NCBI GenBank assembly: GCA_022574065.1
Contig: JACZST010000002.1
Coordinates: 1-30,309, forward strand
Reading direction: 5' to 3'
DNA: 30,309 nucleotides
From: Acidobacteriota bacterium
GTDB taxonomy: Bacteria; Actinomycetota; Acidimicrobiia; Spongiisociales; UBA5794
This document shows, piece by piece, positions 7,627-27,925 of this stretch (its first letter is position 1; the number at the start of each line of letters is the position of its first letter). The notes beneath the pieces are model-generated. The model did not search any database and was not told the DNA's origin. It saw only the letters and a list, made by a program, of their open reading frames with translations. The position numbers were made by a program, and so were the translations under genes.

Positions 7627-8379
7627 TCAGAAAGCCGCGAGCCGCCAGCCGCCGTCGATCGGTATGGTCACGCCAGTGACCACATCGAAACGAGGACCAC
7701 ATAGTTCGGCAACGATGGCTGCGACCTCGTCCCGAGTGACCAGCCGACCCAATGGTGTGGCGCGGGTGGCGCGCTCCACGAACGTCGGGTCGAACTCCGC
7801 CATGTCGTCCGCCGATTCGGCAATCTGGCCCGGAGCCACACAGTTCACGTTCACGTCCGGAGCAACCTCCACCGCGAGCCCTTCAGTGAACGTGATCAAG
7901 GCATCCTTGGCCAGGGTGTAGATCGAATGGTTCCGCACATATGCCGAACCCGCTGAAACGTTGACGACACGCCCCCAACCGAGCATCTCCGGAACCAACA
8001 ATCGGCTTGTCAGATAGGCAGCCTTCACGTTTGAAGTCCAAATACGGTCCCACTCGGATGGGTCGAGATCAACAAAGGATTCCATCGTGAAAGGCCCGGA
8101 GTTGTTGATCAGGAGATCGATAGGTCCGGGGGCCGCGGCAACGGCAGCATCGACCATGGCCCGGATCCCGCCTTCATGTGAGGTATCGCCGTAAACGGCT
8201 GCGTGGTCCCCAGCCGGGAGTCCCGCAATCAGCTCTTCGGCCTTGTCCATGGACTTGTGGTAGGTGACCAGAACATCGGCACCAGCATTGGCCAGGGCCT
8301 TGACGATGCTCGCTCCCAGGTTCCGCGAGGAAGCCGTTACCAGAGCCGTGTGGCCCTCCAAGTAGGTCTTTCCACTCAT
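7627..8379 (-). CDS. SDR-family oxidoreductase (paralogue 1)
   Basis: LVTASSRNLG, LINNSG, GRVVNVSA, YTLAK (YxxxK), VNCVAPG, TPLGR and TGVTIPIDGG. Confidence 0.9.
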   Translation of the reverse strand: MSGKTYLEGHTALVTASSRNLGASIVKALANAGADVLVTYHKSMDKAEELIAGLPAGDHAAVYGDTSHEGGIRAMVDAAVAAAPGPIDLLINNSGPFTMESFVDLDPSEWDRIWTSNVKAAYLTSRLLVPEMLGWGRVVNVSAGSAYVRNHSIYTLAKDALITFTEGLAVEVAPDVNVNCVAPGQIAESADDMAEFDPTFVERATRATPLGRLVTRDEVAAIVAELCGPRFDVVTGVTIPIDGGWRLAAF

Positions 8380-8388
8380 GGTCCCCCC

Positions 8389-9939
8389 TTATGTTTCCTT
8401 GGCCAGATCACCAACGGCCTTAACCCTGATGCGTATAGCGTTGCTAGGCAGGTACGCGAGCGGCACCTCCTCCACTTCGACGATTTCAACCGAAGGCGGG
8501 TCGGCTCCAGCCGCTATCGCCAGTTGTGATGCCTCCTCCTTAGCTTGCTCGAGTGCCGCCGGGCGGCCACTTTCAGCGATGGAATAAACCCGGTCGGTCT
8601 CCCCTCCCACCTGGGCGATCGCCGCGCCGACGGCGTTGGCCACTGAGAAGTGTTCGGGACGGATGACGACCGAGGCACATGTCAGATGGTCCTCCAAAAG
8701 CACGCCGCCGCCGCCAACAACAATCAACGGGACGGGATCTGAAGAAGTCTTCATACTGTCAACCGCGTCGGACACCGATTGCTGGATATGGCGGACGGCC
8801 CAGCGCACCAGATCACCGTCGAGACCCTTGACCAGACTCGCATCACCAATGTCGGCCATCCCCGCCGCCACAGCCACATCGGTAGCCGTCAGAGTGTCGC
8901 CACCGAACACCCGCGCCCGTGACAGTAAGTCGTAGCCAACGCTGTCAGGGCCGACTTCGATCTGGCCAGATTCACCACGCACCAGGCTGCCACCCCCGAT
9001 ACCCAACGAGAGAACATCGGGCATGCGAAAGTTGGTGCGTACTCCCCCAATCTCCACTCCGATCGATGCCTCCCTTGGGAACCCGCTGACCAGCACCCCG
9101 ATATCAGCCGTCGTCCCACCGACATCGACTACAGCTGCGGCGCTCATATCGCTTAGGAATGCCGCCCCGCGCATCGAGTTCGTAGGTCCCGATGCGAATG
9201 TAGCCACAGGGTATTGCTTGGCGTACTCAGCATTCATCAGCGTGCCGTCGTTCTGGCTGATGTATAGCGGAGCGTCGATGATCAGCTCTTCAAGCGCAGA
9301 TTGGAACGCCTCAACAATAGAAACGGCGAGTGGTCGCAGACAGGCGTTCAGAATCGTGGCGTTCTCCCGCTCGAGCAGCCCGATTCGGCCGATTTCATGC
9401 GACAAGGTGATGACCATATCGGGAACCTCGGACCGTATTACTTCGGCTGCCTCCCTTTCAAACTCGCCGTTGACTGGGGAGAACACTGACGTGATGGCCA
9501 TTGAGCGGACTCCATTGGCTGCCGTTGTTGAGGCAACCCGCTTCAGCTCATCGTGATCGAGTGCGCTGATCTCTCGACCATCGAATTCGTGACCGCCGTG
9601 GCAGATGTACCCGTGGTTGCCGATGGCCTGTCGTAGCCGATCAGGCCAGTCGACCAAAGGTGGTAGCGCCTCGGTCGCCGGTAGACCCAGACGCACGGCG
9701 GCCGTCGGCACCAGACGCCTCGTCTCGACCACAGCGTTGGTGAAGTGAGTGGTCCCAATCATGACGCTCGTCACTTCAGCGGGCAACAATGTTCCTTCGT
9801 CGACGAGAGACCGCAGTGCAGTCACGATGCCAGTGGTCACATCCGGTGTGGTCGGCGACTTGACCGTCCCCAGCACCGACCGCTCAGTCATAACCACTGC
9901 GTCGGTGTTGGTGCCGCCGACGTCGACGCCTACCCGCAC
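8389..9939 (-). CDS. Hydantoinase A/oxoprolinase-family protein
   Basis: VGVDVGGTNTDAV, VMIGTTHFTNAV, GHEFDG, IGLLERENATILNA, SQNDGTLM, SGPTNSMRGA, VDVGGTTADIG and ANAVGAA. Confidence 0.93.
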   Translation of the reverse strand: MRVGVDVGGTNTDAVVMTERSVLGTVKSPTTPDVTTGIVTALRSLVDEGTLLPAEVTSVMIGTTHFTNAVVETRRLVPTAAVRLGLPATEALPPLVDWPDRLRQAIGNHGYICHGGHEFDGREISALDHDELKRVASTTAANGVRSMAITSVFSPVNGEFEREAAEVIRSEVPDMVITLSHEIGRIGLLERENATILNACLRPLAVSIVEAFQSALEELIIDAPLYISQNDGTLMNAEYAKQYPVATFASGPTNSMRGAAFLSDMSAAAVVDVGGTTADIGVLVSGFPREASIGVEIGGVRTNFRMPDVLSLGIGGGSLVRGESGQIEVGPDSVGYDLLSRARVFGGDTLTATDVAVAAGMADIGDASLVKGLDGDLVRWAVRHIQQSVSDAVDSMKTSSDPVPLIVVGGGGVLLEDHLTCASVVIRPEHFSVANAVGAAIAQVGGETDRVYSIAESGRPAALEQAKEEASQLAIAAGADPPSVEIVEVEEVPLAYLPSNAIRIRVKAVGDLAKET

Positions 9940-9963
9940 AACAACTCCGTCGGCGGACTGCCG

Positions 9964-12237
9964 TTAGCCTTCGAGGGCATCGAGGACGGCTTCGGGTGTG
10001 ATGGGGATCTTGTCGATTGGCCTGCCGATCGCGTCCGCCACCGCGTTGGCGATCGCCCCAGCCACGGGCACGATTGGCGGTTCGGCTACTCCCTTGGCGC
10101 CATAGGGCCCGGCGGAGGCCTCGTGCTGCAGGAGCACAGCCTCAACGTCGGGAACATCAACGGCCAGTGGCAGTCCGTAGGTCTCCAATGACCGCTGCAC
10201 ATACTTTCCCCCTTCGATGTCCAGCCTCTCCCACAGTGCGTACCCCAGGCCCTGAGCGACTCCACCCTGGATCTGACCTGCGACGCCCTGAGGATTGATC
10301 GTCTTGCCAACCTCTTGAGCCACGAGATATCGGAGAACGATGACGTTCCCCGTTACCGGATCTACTTCCACCTCAGCAATGTGGAGGTGGTAGGTCGGAG
10401 TGGGCCAGGTTGGCAACAGCATCCCTGTGGCGCATGTCGGATTGAAGGCAGGGATCGGCGTGGTATAAGAGCCAGTGGCAGCGATCGGGCCCTCGGTGAA
10501 CATCGCCGTCGCTGCAACCTCGGCGAGGGTCACCCGTGATGATCGATCGCCTGTCACATGGACCTCACCGTGCTCGACCACGAGATCCTCTTCCGCCGCC
10601 TCAAGCATGGTTGCCGCGGTTTTCAGCACGCTGTTCTTCACCTCGGCGGTAGCTTCGAATGCAGCCCGGCCGACCACGTGCGTTGTGCGGCTTCCCTGGG
10701 AGCCAGCGTCATACCCGGCAGTATCGGTATCGGGCATGGTAACGACGACCTGATCGGCGGACAAGCCGAGACCCTCTGCCGCGATTTGTCGTACCCCCAT
10801 CGTCACGGCGCCGGATCCATTGTCGGTCGCGGCAGTGATGACCCCCAACGTGCCATCCTCGTTGAGCTTGACCGTGGCCTGTCCTGGCGCCGGGTTGGTA
10901 AGCCACACAGCGGCTGCCATGCCCACCCCACAAAGAGGGTCCTTCCCCAACTCAGCCCACGGCGCTCGCTCTTCGAGCACTTCGAATGCTTCCCGGAGAA
11001 TCGAGGCATCACTGAGGATCTGGCCGTTGAGCATTTCATCGCCGTCGTCCATCAACGCCTGTAGCCGGTAATCACGTCTGTTCACCCCCAGCTCGTTGGC
11101 GATGTGGTCCATGTGCCTCTCGAGCGCGAACACCAGATACGTGCCGCTCACTCCTCGAAAGGCGCCCGTGGGCGCGGTGTTCGTGTAGACCGCCCGGGTG
11201 GCCACCCGGGCGGTGCCTACCCGATACACAGAACCAAAAACGAACATCGGGATGCTGGTCAGATACGGCGCATCGATGGCGTAGGCACCACTATCGAAGA
11301 CGACGTCCACATCAAGAGCCAGGATCTTTCCGGCACTGTCCACTGCAGAGCGGATCTTCACCACCGCGTTCTCGCGGCAGGGAGCGGTGAGAAGGTCCTC
11401 CTGACGCGTGTTGACCATTTTGACCGGCCGCCCGGTCCGGCGAGCCAGAAAAGCCGCGTAGGCCTCGAGACCGAGGTCGAGTTTGGCCCCGAACGCCCCG
11501 CCGATGTGATGTCCGATCACGCGCACCGCGGACTTAGGGACGCCAAGAGTCTGGGCGACGCGGTCGCGCACGTTAAAGGGGAACTGATGCGAGACATGAA
11601 TAGTGAACCGGCCAGCTTCATATGTGGCGAGGGCCATCTTGGGCTCGAGGTAGGCCTGGTACTGCCGGGGAGCGCCATAGACGTCCTCCACCACGAGATC
11701 GGCGGTCTCGAACACTGCATCCACATCGCCAGGATCCGCCACGGTCTCACTCACGATGTTGCCGTCTCGCGGCCACTCGAGATTGCCCATGGTCGCGAAG
11801 GTGGCCCAGCCCGGATGTACGAGCCTGGCACCCGGTGCCAGGGCCTGCTCCGGAGTCGCCACCGGCTCCTGCTCCTCGATCTCGAACTCGATGGCCCCGA
11901 GGGCGGCCTTGGCGATCTCTGGGGTTTCTGCCACGACCGCGGCCAACGGCTCTCCCTCGTATGTGATGTAGTCGGTGGCAAAGAGAGGCATGTCGAACAA
12001 AACGATGCCGGTGCGCTCGTTTGGCACTTCTGCAGCAGTGACAACAGCATGCACGCCGTCCATCGACACCGCCGTGCCGGTGGCAATCGACATCAGCCGG
12101 CCCGCTGCGACGGGAGAGCGGAGAAGCTGCGCATAGACCATTCCGGGCAGGGAGAAGTCGACACCGAATACGGCGGCGCCACTCACTTTGGCGTCACCGT
12201 CGCTTCTCGGAGCGCTCGTTCCAACGGTCACCGTCAT
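9964..12237 (-). CDS. Xanthine dehydrogenase-family molybdopterin-binding (large) subunit
   Basis: RSDGDAKVSG, QAYLEP, IGGAFGAK, TGAFRGVSG, QGSRTT, GQIQGGVAQGLG and GAKGVAEPP (catalytic Glu present). Confidence 0.93.
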   Translation of the reverse strand: MTVTVGTSAPRSDGDAKVSGAAVFGVDFSLPGMVYAQLLRSPVAAGRLMSIATGTAVSMDGVHAVVTAAEVPNERTGIVLFDMPLFATDYITYEGEPLAAVVAETPEIAKAALGAIEFEIEEQEPVATPEQALAPGARLVHPGWATFATMGNLEWPRDGNIVSETVADPGDVDAVFETADLVVEDVYGAPRQYQAYLEPKMALATYEAGRFTIHVSHQFPFNVRDRVAQTLGVPKSAVRVIGHHIGGAFGAKLDLGLEAYAAFLARRTGRPVKMVNTRQEDLLTAPCRENAVVKIRSAVDSAGKILALDVDVVFDSGAYAIDAPYLTSIPMFVFGSVYRVGTARVATRAVYTNTAPTGAFRGVSGTYLVFALERHMDHIANELGVNRRDYRLQALMDDGDEMLNGQILSDASILREAFEVLEERAPWAELGKDPLCGVGMAAAVWLTNPAPGQATVKLNEDGTLGVITAATDNGSGAVTMGVRQIAAEGLGLSADQVVVTMPDTDTAGYDAGSQGSRTTHVVGRAAFEATAEVKNSVLKTAATMLEAAEEDLVVEHGEVHVTGDRSSRVTLAEVAATAMFTEGPIAATGSYTTPIPAFNPTCATGMLLPTWPTPTYHLHIAEVEVDPVTGNVIVLRYLVAQEVGKTINPQGVAGQIQGGVAQGLGYALWERLDIEGGKYVQRSLETYGLPLAVDVPDVEAVLLQHEASAGPYGAKGVAEPPIVPVAGAIANAVADAIGRPIDKIPITPEAVLDALEG

Positions 12238-12716
12238 GGTCGCGTTGATTCCGCGGTTACTGCAGCGACCGCTTCGATGATCTGTCGGTAGCCGGTACAG
12301 CGGCAGATGTTGCCGTCAAGGGCTTCCCTCACCTCGAAGGAGGAGGGAGAGGGATTCTCCTCGAGCAACGCCGTGAGCGTCATCAGAAAGCCCGGAGTGC
12401 AGAACCCGCACTGGACCGAGCCGTGGTCGATGAAGGCCTGCTGGAGCGGCCCTAGTGCGCCGTCCCCGGACAACCCCTCGACGGTGCGCACTTGTCGTCC
12501 TTCGAGCGCGGCGGTGAGGAGTATGCAAGAGTCCACTGGTCTGTCGTCGACGAGGACAGTGCACGCGCCGCACTCTCCTTCGACACATCCATCCTTGGTG
12601 CCGGTCAGGCGTAGTCGCTCGCGCAAAGTGCGCAAAAGGGTCTCACCGGGACCAACTTCAAGGCGATGGGCGACCCCGTTGACGCTGAAAGCCACTGCAA
12701 CACCATTGACCGTCAT
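12234..12716 (-). CDS. Xdh/CoxS-family (2Fe-2S)-binding subunit
   Basis: GCVEGECGACTV, QCGFCTPG and NICRCTGY. Start at ATG 12716 overlaps the FAD-subunit stop (ATGA). Confidence 0.95.
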   Translation of the reverse strand: MTVNGVAVAFSVNGVAHRLEVGPGETLLRTLRERLRLTGTKDGCVEGECGACTVLVDDRPVDSCILLTAALEGRQVRTVEGLSGDGALGPLQQAFIDHGSVQCGFCTPGFLMTLTALLEENPSPSSFEVREALDGNICRCTGYRQIIEAVAAVTAESTRP

Positions 12717-13567
12717 GACGTCACCGCTTCTCGGCACTGGATTGCAGCCCGCTCGAGCAAGCCACCCAAGGTGCGCCTGCGATAGGAGGCCGAGGCCCGA
12801 GCATCATCGATCGGGCAGGCCGCGGCGCGTAACGCCTCACCGGCGGCGTCGAACACGCCTCCGTCCAACCGCGAGCCGATCAACGCCTTCTCCGCGTCTG
12901 GCACCCGCCTCGGTGTCGGAGCAACCGAACAAAGGGCAATACGAGCCGAATCGACTGTGCCGTCGGCTGCGAACCCGATCCGTACGGCCATGCCAACAAG
13001 AGCCACCTCCATGGCCCCACGCCTACCAACTTTGAGGTAGACCTCGCCGGAGCCCCTAGGCAATGGGTCGAGATCGATTGCCGTAAGCATCTCGTCCGGA
13101 TCCATCACCGTTTGGCGGCGGTCGAGAAAGAAGTCCATTAGCGCCAGTCGCCGTCTTCCGCGACGAGATGCCAGGGTGACATACGCATCGGCTACGAGCA
13201 GTGGCGGTACAGTATCTGCCGCCGGAGATGCATTGCAGATGTTCCCGCCGATGGTTCCAACTGCCTGCGTTTGCCAACCGCCCACCGTTCGAGCAGAAGC
13301 GGCCAGGGCCGGATGAACTGCTCCGATGACCTCATCAGTGGCGAGTACGCGGTGAGTCACGAGTGGACCGAGCGTGGTTCGGTGGTTGAGAGAGACGGTT
13401 GTCAAGTCTTCAATGCCCTCGATATGGACGAAAGCCTCTGGCGCAATCTCGCCTGCCAGGTATTGAATCACCGCGTCGGTGCCACCAGCGAGTACCAGCG
13501 CATCATCGCCCAGTTCGCCCAAGAGGTCGAGTGCTTCGTCCAGGGTTTGGGCTCGGTGAAACTGCAT
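12713..13567 (-). CDS. Xdh/CoxM-family FAD-binding subunit
   Basis: LAGGTD, TIGGNICNASPAADT, YLKVGRRGAMEV, ARIALCSVAPTP, PIDDARASASYRR. Confidence 0.93.
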   Translation of the reverse strand: MQFHRAQTLDEALDLLGELGDDALVLAGGTDAVIQYLAGEIAPEAFVHIEGIEDLTTVSLNHRTTLGPLVTHRVLATDEVIGAVHPALAASARTVGGWQTQAVGTIGGNICNASPAADTVPPLLVADAYVTLASRRGRRRLALMDFFLDRRQTVMDPDEMLTAIDLDPLPRGSGEVYLKVGRRGAMEVALVGMAVRIGFAADGTVDSARIALCSVAPTPRRVPDAEKALIGSRLDGGVFDAAGEALRAAACPIDDARASASYRRRTLGGLLERAAIQCREAVTS

Positions 13568-13713: not shown

Positions 13714-14784
13714 GTGTGGGAAGTTGTCGAAGCCGATCTGCTCCCCGTGTCTATAGGAGCAGGGATCCTGGGCACAGGAGGTGGCGGAAACCCTTATCTT
13801 GGTTACCTGAGAGTGAGGGAGGAGCTCCGCTCAGGAGCCACCGTGAAAGTGATCGATCCCGAGGAGATCGAAGACGACGACAGGCTGGTCGTCGTTGGTG
13901 GTATGGGTTCTCCAGTGGTCACTTACGAGAAGATCGCGCAGGGTGGCGAGGAGACAGCGGCAGCACGCGCTCTCGAAGAGCACCTGGGAGAGAAGTTCGA
14001 TGCAATCGCTCCGTTCGAGATGGGCGGCGGCAATTCGATGGTACCGATGATCGTGTCGGCAAGGATGGGAATCCCGTTGGTGGATGGCGATGGCATGGGT
14101 CGGGCCTTCCCGGAGCTGCAAATGATCACCTATCTCATTTACGGCGGCAGTCCTGCGCCTTCGGCATTGGCCGACGAGCGTGGCAACGTGGTTGTGTTTT
14201 CGGAGGTCGTCGATGCCAGGTGGTTGGAGCGAATTGCCCGTGCTGCGACGATCGAAATGGGGGGCCACGCCGGTCTCGCCACCGCGGTCATGGACGGGGC
14301 GTTCTGCAAAAGGTCGATCATCCCAAACACACTCCGGCTTGCCCGATCAATCGGCCGAGCCGTGCTGCACGCCCGGAAAACGAAGAACGATCCTTCGGCC
14401 GCGGTCATCGCCGTCGCCGGAGGAATGCGCTATCTGAGGGGAAAGGTGACAGACGTCCACCGGCGCCCCGCCAAGGGGTTTGCCCGTGGTCACGTGGTCC
14501 TTGAAGGAGTGGGCGAGGATGCCGGGCGCTCGATCCGGATCGAGTTCCAGAACGAAAACCTGGTGATCTGGGAAGACGACGAGCCAAAGGTGACTGTTCC
14601 TGATCTGATCAGCCTCGTCATCACCGAGACCGGGGAACCGATCACGACCGAGCTAATCCGCTACGGCTTTCGCGCCGACGTCCTCGTCCTCAAGCGCCCA
14701 GACCTACTCGCGACCGAGGAAGCGCTCGCAGTCGTCGGCCCACGCGCCTTTGGCATCGACCTCGACTACCAGCCGGTCTTCTAG
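13714..14784 (+). CDS. DUF917-family protein
   Basis: GAGILGTGGGGNPY, VGGMGSP, FEMGGGNS, DGDGMGRAFPELQM, IEFQNENL, PDLISL, TTELIRYG and VVGPRAFG. Start set at GTG 13714 after GGAGG. Confidence 0.9.
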   Translation: MWEVVEADLLPVSIGAGILGTGGGGNPYLGYLRVREELRSGATVKVIDPEEIEDDDRLVVVGGMGSPVVTYEKIAQGGEETAAARALEEHLGEKFDAIAPFEMGGGNSMVPMIVSARMGIPLVDGDGMGRAFPELQMITYLIYGGSPAPSALADERGNVVVFSEVVDARWLERIARAATIEMGGHAGLATAVMDGAFCKRSIIPNTLRLARSIGRAVLHARKTKNDPSAAVIAVAGGMRYLRGKVTDVHRRPAKGFARGHVVLEGVGEDAGRSIRIEFQNENLVIWEDDEPKVTVPDLISLVITETGEPITTELIRYGFRADVLVLKRPDLLATEEALAVVGPRAFGIDLDYQPVF

Positions 14785-15182
14785 GCCTTCGAGCCTGGCT
14801 CGTACTTCTCGAAATGCTCGTGAACGAGTCGAACGTCGTTGTTCTCGTGAAGCGACACGATCTTCCCTTCTCTGACTTCAAAAACATCGACACCATGGTT
14901 GCTCCAGGGTGCCCCTGCGGCGGTACGAGCGGTTTCGGTCCAAGTCACCGCAGCATGATCGCCATCGATCACCTTGCGCTCAATCCGAAAGTCGAGGTCA
15001 ACGAGCAGTCCCGCAGAGTGATCAAAGAATCGCCGCGCCTCGTCGATGCCTTGTTCATCAACCTGCCCTAAGAACCGAAAAGCGATGTCTTCGCTGAAGG
15101 TCGCCAACATCCCTGCTGGATCGCCAGCGAGATAGGCTTCGTATAGATCGTCGATGACTCGCCGAGTTTCTTCATTCCCCAT
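14781..15182 (-). CDS. NTF2/SnoaL-like protein
   Basis: 133 aa with VIDDLYEAYLAGD...FSED...GDHAAVTW...GVDVFEVREGKIVSL, and AAGGAGG ribosome-binding site. Confidence 0.88.
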   Translation of the reverse strand: MGNEETRRVIDDLYEAYLAGDPAGMLATFSEDIAFRFLGQVDEQGIDEARRFFDHSAGLLVDLDFRIERKVIDGDHAAVTWTETARTAAGAPWSNHGVDVFEVREGKIVSLHENNDVRLVHEHFEKYEPGSKA

Positions 15183-15246: not shown

Positions 15247-16005
15247 CTAGAACGTGTTGAGGCGCAACCCGCCATCGACCGGAACCGTCACGCCGGTGAC
15301 CGAGTCGAACACCGGGCTACACAGCAACACGACCATGTCGGCGAGCTCCCGCCGTGTGACAAGACGTCCCCGTGGCGTTGAGTTCATCACTTTCTCAGCC
15401 CATTCGGGGGCTTTTTCCCTGAGTTCTCCGAGACTTTCGTAGATCTGACCGGGAGCGATGGCATTGACCAGAATCTCCGGGGCCAGCTCCAGCGCCAGCT
15501 CCTCGGTGAGTGTGATGATCGCTGCGTTCGCCAGGGTGTAGATGGATCGATTGCGAACGTATGCAGACGACGCAGAGAGGTTGACGATGCGCCCCCAACC
15601 ATGATCTTTCATCCCAGGAGCAGCAGCACGCGTCATCAGATATGTTGCCTTCGCTTTGACATTCCAAACTCGATCAAACTCGCCTTCCTCCAGCTCGAGA
15701 AAAGGCTTGGCAATGTAAGGACCGGCGTTGTTTACGAGGATGTCGATCGGTCCGTCAAGGGCTCGCTTGGCCTCCGCAATGATCCGCTCGGAGTCGCTCG
15801 GATCGGAGACATCTCCGCCCACAGCCAAATGACGACCGTGGTCCACATCCGGGAGAGACGCTACGACCACCTCAGCCTCGTCACGGGAACTACGGTAGTT
15901 GACGGCGACAGCGGTTCCCGAAGCCGCCAGACGGAGGGCGATCTCGGCACCAAGGTTGCGTGAAGCGCCTGTTACGACGGCTCGGTGCCCGGCGAGCTCA
16001 GCCAT
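15247..16005 (-). CDS. SDR-family oxidoreductase (paralogue 2) with atypical active site (YxxxN)
   Basis: VTGASRNLG, LVNNAG, GRIVNLSA, YTLAN, VNAIAPG, TPRGR and TGVTVPVDGG. The start could instead be 16026. Confidence 0.88.
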   Translation of the reverse strand: MAELAGHRAVVTGASRNLGAEIALRLAASGTAVAVNYRSSRDEAEVVVASLPDVDHGRHLAVGGDVSDPSDSERIIAEAKRALDGPIDILVNNAGPYIAKPFLELEEGEFDRVWNVKAKATYLMTRAAAPGMKDHGWGRIVNLSASSAYVRNRSIYTLANAAIITLTEELALELAPEILVNAIAPGQIYESLGELREKAPEWAEKVMNSTPRGRLVTRRELADMVVLLCSPVFDSVTGVTVPVDGGLRLNTF

Positions 16006-16048
16006 GGTTGCGTGAGTGCCGGTCATGTCGGCCACGAGTTGGGGTAGC

Positions 16049-17287
16049 TCACGAATCCTGAATCTGCGCTTGTAGTGCCGGAAGAGTCGGCTCAATGAGC
16101 GGTACTTCATCAAGTCGAGCGGCGGTCGTTTCGATGTCCTTCAGTCCAGTCGAGGTGCCTATCGCCACAATGACTTCGTCCTCTGCAATGAGATCCTCCG
16201 CTGCGAGTCGCTCTGCAGCTTGAACAGCCGTGACCGAGGAGGCCTCGAGATATAGGCCTTCGTCGGCCGCCAACATCAGCTGGCTGCGCATGATCTCTGT
16301 GTCCTCCCCGACAACGACAGCACGGCCATTGGTCTGTCTCAGCACGCGTACGCCCTGGTAGGTGGCCACATTACCCGCGATCGAGAATGCGACTGACGGA
16401 CGGGCCTGGGTGGTCGCCGGCACGTCACTGCCCTCGAGCAGTGTGGCCGAGAAGGGACCCAACGGCTCAGCGGCTACCAGCCGGGGCATGCTCTCAGAAT
16501 GGCCAAGGGCAGCCAGATCGGCAAATCCACGGAAGATGCCAGCGAGCCCGTCACCGTAGGCGGTCGGCACGACAACCACGTCGGGAACTCCGCCAACCTG
16601 CTCGTAGATCTCATAGGCGATGGACTTATACCCTTCGATGCCAAACGGGTTCGATCCTATTGGAGGGTCCACGAGTCCCGACAGCGGGACCCAGCCCCAC
16701 TCCTCAACGGCCAAACGCATCAGCGACCACCTGTCTTTTGGGCGCTCAACCGCCACGACCTCCGCGCCGTATGCCTGCATGAGCACTTTCATCGTCAGCG
16801 GAACCGAGGCCAACGTCAGAGCGATGCAACGCATGCCAGCTGCAGCAGCGTAGGCAGCAACGGCCGCACCATGGTTCCCGGTGGTCGCCACAACCACAGT
16901 GTTAGCGCCGTCGGCGAGGGCTTTGGTCGTAGCGACGGCGGCAAGCCGATCCTTATACGACCAGGTCGGGTTTCGAGTTTCGTCCTTCAGATAGAGGCGA
17001 GAGAGGCCGAGCCGAGCGCCGGTCCGTTCCAGGTGAAGTAACGGTGTATTTCCCTCGCCCAGGCTCACGACCGGTGCCGCCTCCGGCAATGGCAGCATTC
17101 CTTTTCGCTGAAATAGCCCTGGAGCCGCCGGGTCGGGCGCCCATGATTCCGCCCCGAATTCATATACGGGATGAACGTTGACCGGCACACCTTGGCCGGC
17201 ACACACAGAGCAGCCGTACATGAAGGCCTTCTCCTCGACCTGGGCACCACAGCGTGGACAGGCCAAATAGCACAGATACGCGCTCAC
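16049..17287 (-). CDS. Threonine-synthase-like fold-type II PLP enzyme
   Basis: N-terminal CPRC...CSVC, SLGEGNTPL, LYLKDETRNPTWSYKDR (PLP Lys), ATTGNHG, EGYKSIAYEI and TSTGLKD. GTGA overlap with the upstream gene. Confidence 0.88.
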   Translation of the reverse strand: MSAYLCYLACPRCGAQVEEKAFMYGCSVCAGQGVPVNVHPVYEFGAESWAPDPAAPGLFQRKGMLPLPEAAPVVSLGEGNTPLLHLERTGARLGLSRLYLKDETRNPTWSYKDRLAAVATTKALADGANTVVVATTGNHGAAVAAYAAAAGMRCIALTLASVPLTMKVLMQAYGAEVVAVERPKDRWSLMRLAVEEWGWVPLSGLVDPPIGSNPFGIEGYKSIAYEIYEQVGGVPDVVVVPTAYGDGLAGIFRGFADLAALGHSESMPRLVAAEPLGPFSATLLEGSDVPATTQARPSVAFSIAGNVATYQGVRVLRQTNGRAVVVGEDTEIMRSQLMLAADEGLYLEASSVTAVQAAERLAAEDLIAEDEVIVAIGTSTGLKDIETTAARLDEVPLIEPTLPALQAQIQDS

Positions 17288-18429
17288 GGCTCGATCACTC
17301 GCAGTGACCGGTCGGAGACCGTCAACATATCCGCGCCATCGGCGGTCACCACGAGAGCGTCCTCGACCATCATCCCGCCCCAGCCGATCTCGTAGTAGGG
17401 CGTCTCAAAGCAGAAAACCATTCCTGACTCCAACACGGTGGGCCATGCTGGGGCCACCACCGGACGCTCGTAAACCTCGGTGCCAATGGCATGGCCGCAG
17501 TGCTGGCGACGGTATGGAATGAGTCCGGAGTCCTCCACCGCGGACACCGCTACATCGAAGAGGTGCTCTGCCGAGATGCCGGGTCGAACCGTTTGCAGTT
17601 GCGCTTCCTCTCCCGCCAGAATCGCCGCGTATCGAGATGCCACGAGATGGTTCGGCTCACCCACGACGGCTGTGCGTCCAATGTCCGACCAGTAGCCCTC
17701 GAAAGTGCATCCCACGTCGAAACGCACCAGATCGCCCTGCCGAAGCACCCGGTTCGTCGGTCGCGCATCCGAAAACGCGCTCCGAGGACCTGATGTCACC
17801 ACGGTGAAGCGAGGAAATCCTCCACCGGCGGCCATGGTAGTCGCCACCGCCTTCGCCAATTCGAGCTCCGATATGCCTGCACCTGCTGTCTCGATTGCGG
17901 CGTCGATGCCTTGCTCGGCAAGCCGTGCAGCCACACGCAGTCGCTCAACCTCTTCCGGTAACTTCACGGCCCGGCGGTCATACATCCAGTCGGTGGCGTC
18001 GAGCGGCTCAGCTCCCACACTCGAGATCGCCGGAGCAAGATCACTCGCACCGGCGTCGAACCCAACCCGTCCGGCGATGTTGGCCCGAGACATGGCGTCG
18101 GTCACGGCTTCCTGAAAAGACTCGTGTCGCCCGGTGAGTTGCGACTCAGGAGCCTCACCGCCGACAGATTCAAAGTAGAAGGTGCCAAACGGAATGTAGG
18201 TCTCGGCGGAGATACCCGCCTCGAAGGCCGCAGCCCCGTCCGATGCGCCACCCACCACAAAGGTCTGGTCGCCAGACATCAGGACGAGCATCCGATGAGA
18301 TTCGAACAGATCACCGGCGACGCTTCGGTAGCCCGTCGAATAGCCGATATGCGTTTTTGACCCGAGCGCGAGCCAGTCGTAGGCAGATTCATCGAGGGCC
18401 GCACGTAGCTTCGCCGCGGTCTCGATCAT
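17284..18429 (-). CDS. M24-family (Xaa-Pro peptidase/creatinase fold) metallohydrolase
   Basis: KLPEEVERLRVAARLAE, with all five metal ligands: FDVG, SDIGRT, GHAIG, FETP and VEDAL. Confidence 0.92.
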   Translation of the reverse strand: MIETAAKLRAALDESAYDWLALGSKTHIGYSTGYRSVAGDLFESHRMLVLMSGDQTFVVGGASDGAAAFEAGISAETYIPFGTFYFESVGGEAPESQLTGRHESFQEAVTDAMSRANIAGRVGFDAGASDLAPAISSVGAEPLDATDWMYDRRAVKLPEEVERLRVAARLAEQGIDAAIETAGAGISELELAKAVATTMAAGGGFPRFTVVTSGPRSAFSDARPTNRVLRQGDLVRFDVGCTFEGYWSDIGRTAVVGEPNHLVASRYAAILAGEEAQLQTVRPGISAEHLFDVAVSAVEDSGLIPYRRQHCGHAIGTEVYERPVVAPAWPTVLESGMVFCFETPYYEIGWGGMMVEDALVVTADGADMLTVSDRSLRVIEP

Positions 18430-19460
18430 GCGCGACCCTTTCGCCCATACGGAGCGATGACCTGCTCAGAGAATTGCTCCATGGCTTCCAAAGTCTCCGC
18501 GACCGTGTTGGTTGCAAAAAGCAACCCCGCAAAAGCCTCGACTCCCGACTCCAGGTATGCCTGCACTTGCTCAGCCACATCATCTGGCGTGCCAACGAGG
18601 TTACGCATCTCGAGGGAGTCGGCGAGTCGGCCTTTCATCGTCGAGGTCCCAAGAGAGGTGAGATGGGTCTGGATCTGGGAGGAGCGAAAGCGCTCGACGG
18701 CCCCCTCGTGGCTGTCGTGAATGGAAACCGCTAGCTGCATCGCCGCCTCGAAGGGGCGGTCCGCAACGATGTCCGACTCATCCTCGAGAAGGCGAATCTC
18801 GTTCAACCCTGCGGCGTATTCCGGCGGCGTCAGGCACGCCGGCAGCCATCCGTTCGCCCTCGTCGCTGCTCGACGGCGAGACGCTGCTGAGTTGCCTCCA
18901 GACAGGATCGGCAGAGGACTCTGAACCGGCTTGGGGTAGCTCTCGATGTCCTCGAAACAGATGAACTCTCCCGAGTAGGTGGCGCGCCGTTCTGAGAACA
19001 GGACATCAAGCGCCGCAAGGAACTCATCGGCATAGCGTCCTCGGTGCAGATCGCGCCCCGGGTACATAGCCTCGAACTCTTCTCTGTAGGCGCCAACACC
19101 AACACCAACAATCATCCGCCCATTCGAGAGTTGGTCGAGCGTTGCCACCTGTTTGGCCGCCATGACCGGGTGATGGAACGGAGCCACGAGGACACAGGTG
19201 GCCAACCGAAGCGTCGCCGTTGAAGCTGCAACATAGGCGAGATACGTCAGCGGGTCGTAGAAGCGAGGCGGTTCGTCGAAGGCTCCCCTGATGTATTGCT
19301 GGGTTGACACGTGGTCGTTGCCCCAAACAGAGTCGAAACCGAGCCGTTCCGCAGCCACGGCAAGTTGGACAGCCTCATCGACATCAGCGAACGGAATCGG
19401 GTACATCAGTCCTTCGGTGGCCGTCGGAACTCCGAGTCCGAAGCGCGGCGTTCCGCTCAC
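18426..19460 (-). CDS. LLM-class oxidoreductase, probable F420-dependent (Rv2161c-like)
   Basis: AERLGFDSVWGNDHV, DPLTYLAYVAASTATLRLAT, HPVMAAKQVATLDQLSNGR, PKPVQSPLPI and GWLP. GTG 19460 has AGAGGA upstream; ATG 19508 is an alternative start. Confidence 0.88.
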   Translation of the reverse strand: MSGTPRFGLGVPTATEGLMYPIPFADVDEAVQLAVAAERLGFDSVWGNDHVSTQQYIRGAFDEPPRFYDPLTYLAYVAASTATLRLATCVLVAPFHHPVMAAKQVATLDQLSNGRMIVGVGVGAYREEFEAMYPGRDLHRGRYADEFLAALDVLFSERRATYSGEFICFEDIESYPKPVQSPLPILSGGNSAASRRRAATRANGWLPACLTPPEYAAGLNEIRLLEDESDIVADRPFEAAMQLAVSIHDSHEGAVERFRSSQIQTHLTSLGTSTMKGRLADSLEMRNLVGTPDDVAEQVQAYLESGVEAFAGLLFATNTVAETLEAMEQFSEQVIAPYGRKGRA

Positions 19461-19498
19461 CGGTCCATCCTCTGTGCTTGAAGCCGCGGAGGTCGATT

Positions 19499-20488
19499 TT
19501 AGAGCCATGGCATTACCGCGTCGGCGGTGAGACGGACGATGTCGTCGACTCGATCGGTTGCGACCGGGTATAGGGCAACCGAGTCGGCACCGGCGTCGTA
19601 GAAGCCCTTTATCCTCGCAGCGCACTCTTCCGGCGTACCGGCGATGGTCAGATCGTCGACCCACTGGTCGGGCATCCCTGCCAGCAGCGCGTCGTATCCA
19701 CCGGTGGCGATGAGCGCATTGAGCTCGTCCGAGATTCCGTACACGTCGGTTAGGGCGTTGGCACCGTGCTGCCCATAGAAGGCGAGTGTTGTCTTGGCAG
19801 ACTCGCGAGCTGCGGCCCCGTCTGCATCCACGGAGTAGATGGCAAACACAGTGATCGGATGATCGTCGGTGCGGCCGCCCCGCTTCCGCCCTTCGTTGAT
19901 GCGGTTTCTCGCCCATTGCACGTATTCGTGACTGGCGGCAACGGACAGCACCGAACCATCGGCTACCTCTCCCGAGAGTCGGAGCATTCTTGGTCCTGAT
20001 ACGCCCATGCGAATCGGGGTCGGCTTGCCCACCTCAGGGTAGGTCAGAGTCACGTTTTCGAATGTGTACACCTGGCCGTCCTGATGCACCGTCTCGCCGC
20101 GCAACAAGCTCTTGACGCTGGTGACGCACTCACGCAAAGCCGCCAGCGTCGACGGCGGGTACAGACCCATCTGACGTACCCACGCCGGCACCCCCAGCCC
20201 GATGCCGGCGATCAGGCGATTAGGGTGCACACGCGAGATCGTCGAGATCTCCATCGCGAGCAGGGCAGGGTGGCGAGCCATCGCTGAAACCACGCCGAGC
20301 CCGACTTTGACACGAGAAGTACTGTCAAGGGCGAGCGCCACGCCGGAGATGCCTCCGGTGGAGAAGAAGTCCTCCGCCAGCCAGACCTCGTCAAATCCGG
20401 ACGCCTCTGCCGTTGCGGTCGCACCGGGGACCTGCCCCGGCGCAATCGCGCTACCAATCACCAAACCCAAGCAATGCTGAGTGCTCAT
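19499..20488 (-). CDS. LLM-class flavin/F420-dependent oxidoreductase (Mer-like)
   Basis: AEASGFDEVWLAED, RHPALLAMEISTI, IAGIGLG, PIRMGVSGPRMLRLSGEVADG, IAGTPEEC and GADSVAL. Confidence 0.9.
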   Translation of the reverse strand: MSTQHCLGLVIGSAIAPGQVPGATATAEASGFDEVWLAEDFFSTGGISGVALALDSTSRVKVGLGVVSAMARHPALLAMEISTISRVHPNRLIAGIGLGVPAWVRQMGLYPPSTLAALRECVTSVKSLLRGETVHQDGQVYTFENVTLTYPEVGKPTPIRMGVSGPRMLRLSGEVADGSVLSVAASHEYVQWARNRINEGRKRGGRTDDHPITVFAIYSVDADGAAARESAKTTLAFYGQHGANALTDVYGISDELNALIATGGYDALLAGMPDQWVDDLTIAGTPEECAARIKGFYDAGADSVALYPVATDRVDDIVRLTADAVMPWL

Positions 20489-26732: not shown

Positions 26733-27638
26733 TCATGCTGCTCGTTCCTGGGCGGCTCGGTCGGCGAGAATCTGCTCGTAGGTGACGGGGGGCTGCATCT
26801 CGCAGCTGCTGTGGCGGCGCTGGTGGTTGTAGCGGTCGATGAACTCCGCTACCTCGCGGCGGGCCTGGGCTTTGGTGGCGAAATGCCGGCGTGAGAGCAG
26901 CTCCCATTCGAGGGTGGAGTTGAAACTTTCCGAGGCTGCGTTGTCCAGTGCGGATCCGACCCGGCCCATCGACTGGACCACACCCAACGCCTCACATGCT
27001 TTGGCGAAGGTGGTACCGGTGTACTCGCCTCCTTTGTCGCTGTGAAAGATCACACCGGCAACGTTGCCGCCGCGCACCGCAGCCGCCATACACAACGCGG
27101 CTTTGGCCAGCTCGGCGTCGTGGTGGGAACCAATCGCGAACCCCGGGAGCCGGCGCGAGGCCAGGTCCTTGACGGTCGCCAAATACAGTTTGCCCTCATC
27201 GGTGGGGATCTCGGTCAAGTCCCCGCACCACTTCTGGTCGATCCCCTTCGCGTTGAAGTCACGTTTAACCAGGTCAGGGACCGGCGCCGCGGCCTTATCG
27301 GGGCGGGTCAAGCCCCGTCGTTTGCGTTTCGGGGACCGGCCATAGAGGCCTTGGCGGGCCATCGACTCGGCCACCGTGTTCACCGACACCACCCACCCGT
27401 CTTCGACCAGGTCCTCGAACACCCTCGGTGACCCATAGGTCCCCGGCGTCCCCCCAGAATCGTCAAAGGATTCCTTCACCGCCTCATCGAGACGACTCCG
27501 GCGGGCCTGGCGTGGTGTCGGCGGGCGATCCCGCCACTTATAAAACGTCGAGGGCGGCACATCGAGAGCCCGGCAAGCCGCCGCGTGGGGGACACCATGG
27601 TCGGTCCTCTGGGCGGCGATAAACGATGCCACGATCAT
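26733..27638 (-). CDS. IS3 OrfB transposase (DDE)
   Basis: [38 protein letters not shown] and YNHQRRHS, with D-D-E intact. ATG 27638 overlaps the orfA stop (ATGA). Confidence 0.93.
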
Positions 27639-27925
27639 CGTGTCGCCTCTTTTACCCAAAGGACCACTGAACGCTTGAGGACATCACGCTCCATTCGCAG
27701 CTCGGCGTTCTCGCTCTCGAGGAACACCAGACGAGCCCGCTCGTCGACGGTGAGGCCCTCAGCCTCGCCACGCTCGATGCGGTCCCTCTTCAACCAGTTC
27801 CCCAGGGTGCCGGCGTTGATTCCCAAATCCCGAGCCACCACCGCTATCGGCTTGTTGGTCTCCCGGACAATCCGGACAGCTCCCTCACGAAACTCCGGGT
27901 CATACTTTCTACGTAACTCTGACAT
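27635..27925 (-). CDS. IS3 OrfA
   Basis: [18 protein letters not shown]...[15 protein letters not shown]...[14 protein letters not shown], with GAGGAG ribosome-binding site. Confidence 0.93.

What the first reader, a model, noticed from the sequence alone, without database searches (positions are those of the whole stretch)
15247..16005. SDR with a reciprocal Asn/Lys swap in the catalytic tetrad
Seen: the two paralogues align without gaps in these segments. Paralogue 1 has the canonical helix-E Asn (DRIWTSNVKA) and YxxxK (YTLAK). Paralogue 2 has Lys at the Asn position (DRVWNVKAKA, codon AAA at 15657-15655) and Asn at the Lys position (YTLAN, codon AAC at 15528-15526). Established: these two residues are neighbours in the SDR proton relay, and the Lys binds the nicotinamide ribose and lowers the Tyr pKa. 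Inference: the catalytic Lys has migrated from helix F to helix E as a compensatory pair, so this is probably a working enzyme with a rewired active site. A non-catalytic partner subunit is the alternative.
Basis: partly seen in the sequence, partly recalled or inferred. Interest (0 to 1): 0.7.

Follow-up and report, generated by a model that had tools for sequence, protein, structure and literature searches.

The report
SDR with ketoreductase-style Lys/Asn swap
A stand-alone short-chain dehydrogenase carries its catalytic-type lysine on helix E and an asparagine in YxxxN, the layout known from polyketide and fatty-acid synthase ketoreductase domains, but most of its orthologues have no lysine at either site, so this was a late gain and not a paired swap.

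Summary
The SDR at 15247-16005 (-) has Lys117 (AAA) at the helix-E Asn site and YTLAN (Asn160, AAC). Its paralogue at 7627-8379 (-) has the canonical Asn and YTLAK.

The change is not an error. Ten distinct sequences in three 90% clusters from several archives carry it.

The "compensatory pair" reading holds only in a weak form:
- About 150 orthologues sit in the same conserved gene cluster in three states: N/K (canonical, 106), N/N (39) and K/N (5).
- YxxxN defines a supported clade of 50 in which about 80% keep the helix-E Asn. Lys loss therefore came first, and the Lys-less state persists under purifying selection (dN/dS 0.11-0.31).
- Helix-E Lys arose twice (AU test rejects one origin, p = 4e-6), only on the YxxxN background.
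- The nearest sister lineage (82-88% identical) has canonical N/K.

K117…Y156xxxN160 matches PKS and FAS ketoreductase domains column for column, with the same 39-residue K-to-Y spacing. The layout is a known working solution.

All other cofactor and catalytic motifs are invariant, which argues against a dead partner subunit. The Lys geometry and the activity remain untested.

The scan has unchecked notes of YxxxN SDRs in two other genomes.

The parts
15247..16005 (-). SDR gene (P0001, 252 aa; possible longer starts at 16026 or 16035)
   Evidence: PF13561 155 bits, PF00106 134 bits; AF2 model pLDDT 93.9
15655..15657 (-). Lys117 codon AAA at the helix-E (tetrad Asn) site
   Evidence: orthologues have AAC/AAT (Asn)
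15526..15528 (-). Asn160 codon AAC at the YxxxK lysine site
   Evidence: canonical orthologues have AAG (Lys)
15538..15540 (-). Tyr156, catalytic tyrosine, invariant in all 152 relatives aligned
15565..15576 (-). S144-A145-S146-S147: serine region after strand 5. The strict catalytic-Ser register falls on the invariant A145; S147 is invariant
15949..15972 (-). Cofactor motif T12-G-A-S-R-N-L-G19
   Evidence: conserved in all state classes
15718..15732 (-). N92-N-A-G-P96 motif
7627..8379 (-). Canonical paralogue (P0002, 250 aa; Asn117 at 8029-8031, Tyr154, Lys158 at 7906-7908), located next to the hydantoinase-A-like gene
16049..17287 (-). Threonine-synthase-like PLP enzyme, conserved upstream neighbour
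14781..15182 (-). SnoaL-like protein, conserved downstream neighbour

Best explanation
The gene encodes an intact, probably NADP(H)-dependent, stand-alone SDR. It is the orthologue of an SDR that always lies between a threonine-synthase-like PLP enzyme and a SnoaL-like protein, inside a conserved catabolic cluster of about 20 kb. That cluster carries an Opp-like ABC transporter, two LLM oxidoreductases, an M24 hydrolase, a DUF917 (thiohydantoin-desulfurase-like) gene, and often an XDH-like enzyme, a hydantoinase-A-like gene and a second SDR. In one clade of these orthologues the YxxxK lysine became Asn (AAG to AAC) long ago, and most members have Asn at both sites. In the window's shallow lineage the helix-E Asn then became Lys through one third-position transversion (AAC to AAA). 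The result, K117...S144/S147...Y156-x3-N160, is position for position the tetrad of PKS/FAS ketoreductase domains. I infer that K117 reaches Tyr156 and the nicotinamide ribose from helix E and does the usual lysine job (lowering the Tyr pKa and holding the ribose), while N160 takes the structural role. Shown here: the positions, the order of events, the two origins, purifying selection, and the match to KR domains. Inferred only: the geometry, the activity and the cofactor.
For: Position: K117 aligns with the canonical Asn of solved SDRs and of 106 canonical relatives, without indels. Precedent: nine KR domains from PKS genes of the same phylum have Lys in the K117 column, and seven of them read YAA[AG]N in the YTLAN column. 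FAS KR uses K1995, S2021, Y2034 and N2038 (PMC4394236, PMC12058525), and its K-to-Y spacing is 39, the same as here. 'Complex' SDRs are defined by YxxxN (PMC2792337). Association: every helix-E Lys lies on the YxxxN background. There are two origins (P0001/P0004/P0005, and P0039/P0273); the AU test rejects a single clade (delta lnL 105, p = 3.6e-6). All four changes at site 117 fall in the YxxxN clade, which holds 29% of the tree length (P = 0.007). Integrity: TGxSRNLG, D65, NNAGP, S144, S147, R151, N152, R153, S154, Y156 and PGQIxES are invariant or nearly so in the K/N, N/N and N/K classes. Site 160 is only ever N or K. dN/dS is 0.16 within the K/N lineage and 0.11-0.31 overall. The AF2 model is a confident classical SDR fold, with K117 inside helix 107-135 and Y156/N160 in helix 154-174. 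Orthology: all three states sit in the same gene order.
Against: 39 of 46 YxxxN clusters have no helix-E Lys, yet they are conserved in the same cluster. The protein's job in this clade therefore does not need a Lys at either site, and K117 may be merely tolerated. The K/N lineages are shallow (dS 0.32 between P0001 and P0004), so retention of AAA is weak evidence of selection. The substrate is unknown and there are no biochemical data. The whole family is atypical near the catalytic Ser (invariant Ala at the strict register, a Ser-Tyr loop 2-4 residues shorter), so canonical mechanistic expectations may not transfer.
Confidence: 0.55

Rival explanations
1. Lys-independent enzyme with near-neutral N/K toggling. 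In this clade the SDR works without a tetrad lysine, helped perhaps by the family-specific R151/R153 loop, the frequent His189, or a different chemistry. Asn and Lys interconvert by single third-position transversions, so K117 and the K160 of the sister lineage would be tolerated drift and not catalytic.
For: The N/N state dominates (39 clusters) and is under the same purifying selection as the canonical forms. All changes are AAY/AAR transversions. Site 117 also shows Ser and Gly in the clade (P0012, P0046), which suggests relaxed constraint once K160 is gone. R151, N152 and R153 are invariant just before helix F.
Against: Site 160 is only ever N or K across saturated divergence (dS above 1.5), so it is not free. 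K never appears at 117 in the 106 canonical clusters. In the best tree, sister lineages each hold exactly one Lys, at one site or the other, and none holds two. His189 is variable (H, Q, L, S, N, R, Y, F, E), so it is not a fixed substitute.
Confidence: 0.3
2. Non-catalytic partner subunit. The YxxxN protein would be a pseudo-enzyme that pairs with the canonical paralogue (P0002 type), as in heteromeric SDRs.
For: A canonical second SDR lies in the same cluster in the window and in L001, L002, L017, L018, L020 and L021. The classical catalytic Lys is missing.
Against: Tyr156, the serines and all cofactor motifs are invariant, and dN/dS equals that of the canonical orthologues. The two SDR genes are 7 kb apart, each tied to different neighbours (PLP enzyme and SnoaL versus hydantoinase-A-like). 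Two N/N loci (L019, L022) lack the XDH-hydantoinase-SDR2 module altogether within the 8-9 kb held downstream of the SDR. Canonical N/K orthologues occupy the very same position.
Confidence: 0.08
3. Strict concerted swap. Lys moved from helix F to helix E as an obligatorily coupled compensatory pair.
For: Helix-E Lys occurs only with YxxxN. The AU test does not quite exclude a rooting that puts the K/N trio at the base of the clade (p = 0.061).
Against: YxxxN occurs without helix-E Lys in 39 clusters. The best tree needs Lys loss first, then two separate gains.
Confidence: 0.05
4. Sequencing or assembly artefact, or a private mutation of this MAG.
For: The genome is a 60%-complete, 211-contig MAG.
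Against: The same K/N state is seen in ten distinct sequences on independent contigs from four archives, and again in a second lineage.
Confidence: 0.01

Closest known systems
'Complex' SDRs: ketoreductase domains of modular PKS and animal FAS (K1995/S2021/Y2034/N2038 in FAS)
   Same: Lys at the helix-E site and Asn in YxxxN, column for column, with the same 39-residue Lys-to-Tyr spacing.
   Different: This is a stand-alone 252-aa protein with no structural KR subdomain. Its cofactor motif is TGASRNLG, not GGxGxxG. It is nested among classical SDRs, and relatives 82-88% identical have the canonical tetrad, so the layout is convergent and not inherited.
Classical NADP(H) SDRs of the FabG / glucose-1-dehydrogenase / FabL / pteridine-reductase kind (4mow, 4jro, 3oic; NF005559, NF005975, NF006598 below cut-off)
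   Same: Fold (TM 0.84-0.89), length, the NNAG motif, the catalytic Tyr, and 30-37% identity.
   Different: YxxxN replaces YxxxK and Lys replaces the helix-E Asn. Family-wide, the Ser-Tyr loop is short (SAxSA[YFW]VRN[RH]S[IV]Y) with Ala at the strict Ser register. No NCBIfam model reaches its cut-off.
Heteromeric SDRs with a degenerate subunit (for example BbsCD; BbsD is PDB 7pcs_B among the hits)
   Same: Two SDR paralogues in one gene cluster, one of them lacking a canonical catalytic residue.
   Different: Only the Lys is displaced. Tyr, Ser and the cofactor motifs are intact. The genes are not adjacent, and the second SDR is absent from some orthologous clusters.
Halohydrin dehalogenases (Ser-Tyr-Arg SDR relatives)
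   Same: A natural SDR-fold family in which the tetrad Lys is replaced and another basic residue supports the Tyr (PMC2792337).
   Different: Those enzymes lost cofactor binding and carry Arg at the Lys position. Here the cofactor motifs are kept and the basic residue sits on another helix.

Membership tests
Classical SDR (PF00106/PF13561; TGxxx[AG]xG + YxxxK) | Rossmann-fold protein of about 250 aa scoring above the Pfam cut-offs | tested here: met
   PF13561 155 bits, PF00106 134 bits; AF2 pLDDT 93.9 and Foldseek TM 0.84-0.89 to FabG-like chains
Classical SDR (PF00106/PF13561; TGxxx[AG]xG + YxxxK) | Cofactor motif TGxxx[AG]xG | tested here: inconclusive
   T12-G13...G19 are present with the right spacing, but position 17 is Asn (TGASRNLG). 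This holds across the whole family
Classical SDR (PF00106/PF13561; TGxxx[AG]xG + YxxxK) | YxxxK active-site motif | tested here: not met
   Y156-T-L-A-N160
Classical SDR (PF00106/PF13561; TGxxx[AG]xG + YxxxK) | Asn on helix E (tetrad Asn) | tested here: not met
   Lys117 lies in that column
Classical SDR (PF00106/PF13561; TGxxx[AG]xG + YxxxK) | Descent: nested among proteins with the canonical tetrad | tested here: met
   The sister lineage P0006-P0008 (82-88% identical) and 106 family clusters are N/K
Complex SDR (PKS/FAS KR domain) | YxxxN active-site motif | tested here: met
   YTLAN aligns with YAA[AG]N in seven of the nine KR domains
Complex SDR (PKS/FAS KR domain) | Catalytic Lys upstream of the Ser, at the helix-E site | tested here: met
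   K117 shares its column with the KR Lys; K-to-Y spacing is 39, as in FAS K1995/Y2034
Complex SDR (PKS/FAS KR domain) | GGxGxxG cofactor motif | tested here: not met
   TGASRNLG
Complex SDR (PKS/FAS KR domain) | Domain of a multidomain synthase with a structural KR subdomain | tested here: not met
   Stand-alone ORF of 252-259 aa between unrelated genes; the KR controls lie in open frames of 431-8069 aa, mostly above 2000
Pseudo-enzyme subunit of a heteromeric SDR | Degenerate catalytic Tyr/Ser or cofactor motifs | tested here: not met
   All are invariant in the K/N and N/N classes
Pseudo-enzyme subunit of a heteromeric SDR | Constant co-occurrence with a catalytic paralogue | tested here: not met
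   No second SDR in L019 or L022 within the 8-9 kb held downstream of the SDR
Pseudo-enzyme subunit of a heteromeric SDR | Physical heteromer | not tested
   No complex prediction was run, because 51%-identical paralogues would pass by likeness

The most novel reading that the evidence does not exclude
This orthologue set may be a living series of catalytic-residue hopping. The tetrad lysine was lost (N/N, stable for a long time). It was later re-created by single transversions either at the old helix-F site (P0006-P0008) or at the helix-E site (twice). That would independently re-invent the PKS/FAS ketoreductase active site and show the viable intermediate through which that layout can evolve.
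Probability: 0.35. Interest if true: 0.65.

Novelty: new variant of a known kind. Interest (0 to 1): 0.45.

Why it matters
The Lys/Asn exchange is the hallmark that separates PKS/FAS ketoreductase domains from classical SDRs, but how one layout turns into the other is not documented. Here near-identical orthologues in one gene cluster show the canonical, the Lys-less and the swapped states. Each differs by a single nucleotide, so the functional equivalence of the two lysine positions, and the activity of the Lys-less intermediate, can be tested with a handful of natural proteins and point mutants. It is also a warning for annotation: YxxxN in a stand-alone SDR does not by itself mean a dead enzyme.

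Tried and rejected
- **Shifted alignment.** A two-residue shift (NVKA of P0001 onto NVKA of P0002) would make N115 the tetrad Asn. I rejected it because orthologues 60-90% identical align without indels and show N117 replaced in place. N115 is a separate clade-wide D-to-N change.
- **Artefact or private change.** Rejected.
- **Lys geometry.** The AF2 model is confident, but its coordinates are not exposed to scripts, so no distance was measured.
- **His189 as a fixed substitute for the lost Lys.** It is enriched in N/N (26 of 39) but variable, so not convincing.
- **Proving that P0006-P0008 are true revertants.** The best tree nests them inside the YxxxN clade, but forcing them outside costs only 27.8 lnL (p-AU 0.061). 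This is not decisive.
- **Literature.** Five full-text searches for an explicit statement of the KR Lys/Asn exchange found none in the open library. I used the SDR review table and FAS KR residue numbers, plus my own alignment of PKS KR domains. One of the ten KR loci (L009) was read in the wrong frame and ignored.
- **Rest of the L019 contig.** A search for a second SDR there failed because the record is not held.
- **Naming the pathway.** Among seven neighbouring proteins tested, only TIGR03619 (F420-dependent LLM) reached its NCBIfam cut-off. The substrate stays unknown, and a DUF917 literature search gave nothing useful.
- **Complex prediction of P0001 with P0002.** Not run. Two 51%-identical SDRs would be expected to pass by likeness to solved SDR dimers, so a pass would not shift the odds.

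Full report
**The observation**

The minus-strand ORF at 15247-16005 translates to a 252-aa protein, P0001. It scores far above the Pfam cut-offs for adh_short_C2 (155 bits) and adh_short (134 bits).

- P0001 reads VWNVK117AKA and Y156-T-L-A-N160. The codons are AAA at 15657-15655 and AAC at 15528-15526.
- The second SDR of the window, P0002 (7627-8379, minus strand), reads DRIWTSN117VKA and Y154TLAK158.
- The two proteins are 51% identical, and both motifs align without gaps.
- HMMER alignments to three solved SDRs (4mow, 9fe6, 3oic) place their canonical Asn opposite K117.

The start codon is uncertain: the database gene call begins at ATG 16026 (259 aa, P0003), and a GTG lies at 16035. I number from 16005.

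**It is real and recurrent, not private**

The same K/N state is present in ten distinct sequences that form three 90%-identity clusters: P0003 with P0309-P0311, P0004 with P0312-P0314, and P0005. They come from NCBI, ENA, Logan and JGI contigs. A second lineage, only 65% identical to P0001, also has K/N: P0039 with P0315, and P0273 at 83% identity to P0039.

**What the orthologues show**

I aligned about 150 full-length relatives from two searches. The states, written as helix-E site / YxxxX site, are: N/K 106, N/N 39, K/N 5, S/N 1 and G/N 1. The exhaustive representative search shows a small specific family. Only a few dozen 50%-identity clusters score above the generic SDR background, and their representatives all carry YxxxK, nearly all with the helix-E Asn.

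An IQ-TREE tree built with the two trait columns removed gives this picture:
- All YxxxN sequences fall in one clade of 50 rows (SH-aLRT 97), nested among canonical sequences.
- Inside that clade N/N is the rule.
- K/N appears in two separate places.
- The window's K/N trio is sister (SH-aLRT 100) to a trio with canonical N/K (P0006-P0008, 82-88% identical to P0001).

Three further tests bear on the order of events:
- An AU test rejects a single origin of K/N (delta lnL 105, p = 3.6e-6).
- All four changes at site 117 on the tree fall in the YxxxN clade, which holds 29% of the tree length (P = 0.007 under equal rates).
- Whether P0006-P0008 regained Lys160 or kept it is not settled. Forcing them outside the clade costs 27.8 lnL (p-AU 0.061).

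The most parsimonious history is this. Lys160 changed to Asn once, early. Much later, Asn117 changed to Lys twice, and probably Asn160 changed back to Lys in the sister trio. Every one of these steps is a single third-position transversion between AAC/AAT and AAA/AAG.

**Same gene, same job**

Ten orthologous loci share one gene order: SnoaL, LLM, usually a second LLM, M24 hydrolase, threonine-synthase-like PLP enzyme, sometimes a 2-hydroxyacid dehydrogenase or IclR gene, then the SDR and a second SnoaL-like gene. An Opp-like ABC transporter lies upstream wherever the contig reaches that far, except in L018 and L021. A divergent DUF917 (S-Me-THD-like) gene follows the second SnoaL-like gene in most loci. 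They cover K/N (L001, L016), N/N (L003, L019, L020, L021, L022), the nested N/K (L002) and the canonical sister clades (L017, L018). One locus (L002) lacks the M24 and PLP genes. Wherever the contig extends past DUF917, except in L019 and L022, an XDH-like three-subunit enzyme follows, and in most of these loci a hydantoinase-A-like gene and a second SDR of the P0002 type as well. The three states are thus orthologues in one pathway.

Of the seven neighbouring proteins tested, none reaches a curated NCBIfam cut-off except an F420-dependent LLM (TIGR03619), so the substrate is unknown. The gene content suggests catabolism of an imported peptide-like or N-heterocyclic compound. That is only an inference.

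**Is the protein intact?**

The following residues are invariant or nearly so in the K/N, N/N and N/K classes alike:
- T12-G-x-S-R-N-L-G19
- D65
- N92-N-A-G-P96
- S144, A145, S147
- R151, N152, R153, S154, Y156
- P185-G-Q-I-x-E-S191

Site 160 is only ever Asn or Lys, although synonymous divergence across the clade is saturated (dS 1.2-2.7). Pairwise dN/dS is 0.11-0.31 for all comparisons and 0.16 within the K/N lineage. The AF2 model is confident (pLDDT 93.9, pTM 0.93). K117 lies inside helix 107-135, and Y156 and N160 lie in helix 154-174. Foldseek finds classical NAD(P)-dependent SDRs at TM 0.84-0.89. Nothing suggests decay.

The R38-S39-S40 stretch after strand 2, and NADP-bound nearest structures, suggest NADP(H). 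This rests on my own knowledge of SDR cofactor rules and was not tested.

**Comparison with the known swap**

The SDR review of Kavanagh et al. lists YxxxN as the active-site motif of 'complex' SDRs, the ketoreductase domains of PKS and FAS (PMC2792337). For animal FAS the KR catalytic residues are K1995, S2021, Y2034 and N2038 (PMC4394236, PMC12058525). The Lys lies 39 residues before the Tyr, exactly as K117 lies before Y156.

I also tested this directly. I took ten PF08659 matches from giant PKS open frames in genomes of the same phylum and aligned them with P0001, its orthologues and generic SDRs. Nine KR domains have Lys in the K117 column; seven of them have YAA[AG]N in the YTLAN column and two have Ser there. 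The tenth was read in the wrong frame and ignored.

What is new is finding it in a stand-alone classical SDR, arisen recently and twice, with canonical and Lys-less orthologues alongside.

**Verdict on the interpretation**

The strict claim is that the Lys migrated as a compensatory pair. A weaker claim survives and is my best explanation (confidence 0.55): K117 is a secondary gain on a Lys-less background that supplies the tetrad Lys from helix E, as in KR domains.

The main rival (0.3) is that this clade's enzyme does not need a tetrad Lys at all, and that Asn/Lys toggling is close to neutral. The long-lived N/N majority is the strongest argument for that view, and it is also the most unusual feature of the family.

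A non-catalytic partner subunit (0.08) is disfavoured for three reasons:
- The motifs are intact.
- The two SDR genes are 7 kb apart with different neighbours.
- Two N/N loci have no second SDR in the stretch held.

**Limits**

Model coordinates could not be read, so the key distance was not measured. No activity, cofactor or oligomer data exist. The trees are quick searches on metagenomic sequences.

Two unchecked notes of this scan describe YxxxN SDRs in other genomes (e1-3360503 and e1-4300089). They suggest Lys-less stand-alone SDRs are not unique to this family. I did not test them.

Noticed in passing
window 15565-15576 (-), residues 144-147; family-wide: In the whole family, canonical members included, the strict catalytic-Ser register (Asn142 + 3) is an invariant Ala145 flanked by S144 and an invariant S147. 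The Ser-Tyr loop is 2-4 residues shorter than in FabG-like SDRs (signature SAxSA[YFW]VRN[RH]S[IV]Y). Which serine is catalytic is unclear.
   Followed up: partly
P0001 residues 47, 110, 115, 146, 157, 251 (alignment): Six substitutions go with the loss of Lys160 at the base of the YxxxN clade: L47V, W110F, D115N, V146S, G157T and R251T. Together with K160N they remove one acidic and two basic residues. P0024 and P0038, which have Lys160, also keep Asp115.
   Followed up: partly
window 15439-15441 (-), residue 189 in PGQIxES: His is common at this position in N/N orthologues (26 of 39) but rare in K/N (1 of 5) and in canonical orthologues (mostly Leu or Ala). It could be a partial stand-in for the lost Lys, but it is variable.
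   Followed up: partly
L019 and L022 versus window 8389-13567: One subclade of the cluster (IclR gene before the SDR) lacks the XDH-like, hydantoinase-A-like and second-SDR module. It goes straight from DUF917 to aminotransferase, KDPG-type aldolase and PfkB kinase, so the module is an optional add-on.
   Followed up: partly
L021:11340-15788: In this locus (record labelled Acidobacteria MAG) the DUF917, Mo-hydroxylase and hydantoinase genes are called in pieces (109 aa; 84+184+383 aa; 228+277 aa), while both SDRs are whole. This is either a decaying module or assembly errors.
   Followed up: no
window 18426-19916 (-): The 496-aa ORF has an Arg-rich N-terminal 170 aa with no Pfam match, and it overlaps the upstream LLM gene (19499-20488). 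The real LLM gene probably starts near 19400, where it matches TIGR03619 above its cut-off.
   Followed up: partly
window 26733-27659 (-): An IS3-type transposase (rve integrase core, HTH_21) sits between the ABC transporter's binding-protein gene and the next gene.
   Followed up: no
window 16005-16051: Start of the SDR gene is ambiguous (ATG 16005, ATG 16026, GTG 16035), and none has an obvious Shine-Dalgarno sequence. Orthologues are called at 251-263 aa.
   Followed up: partly
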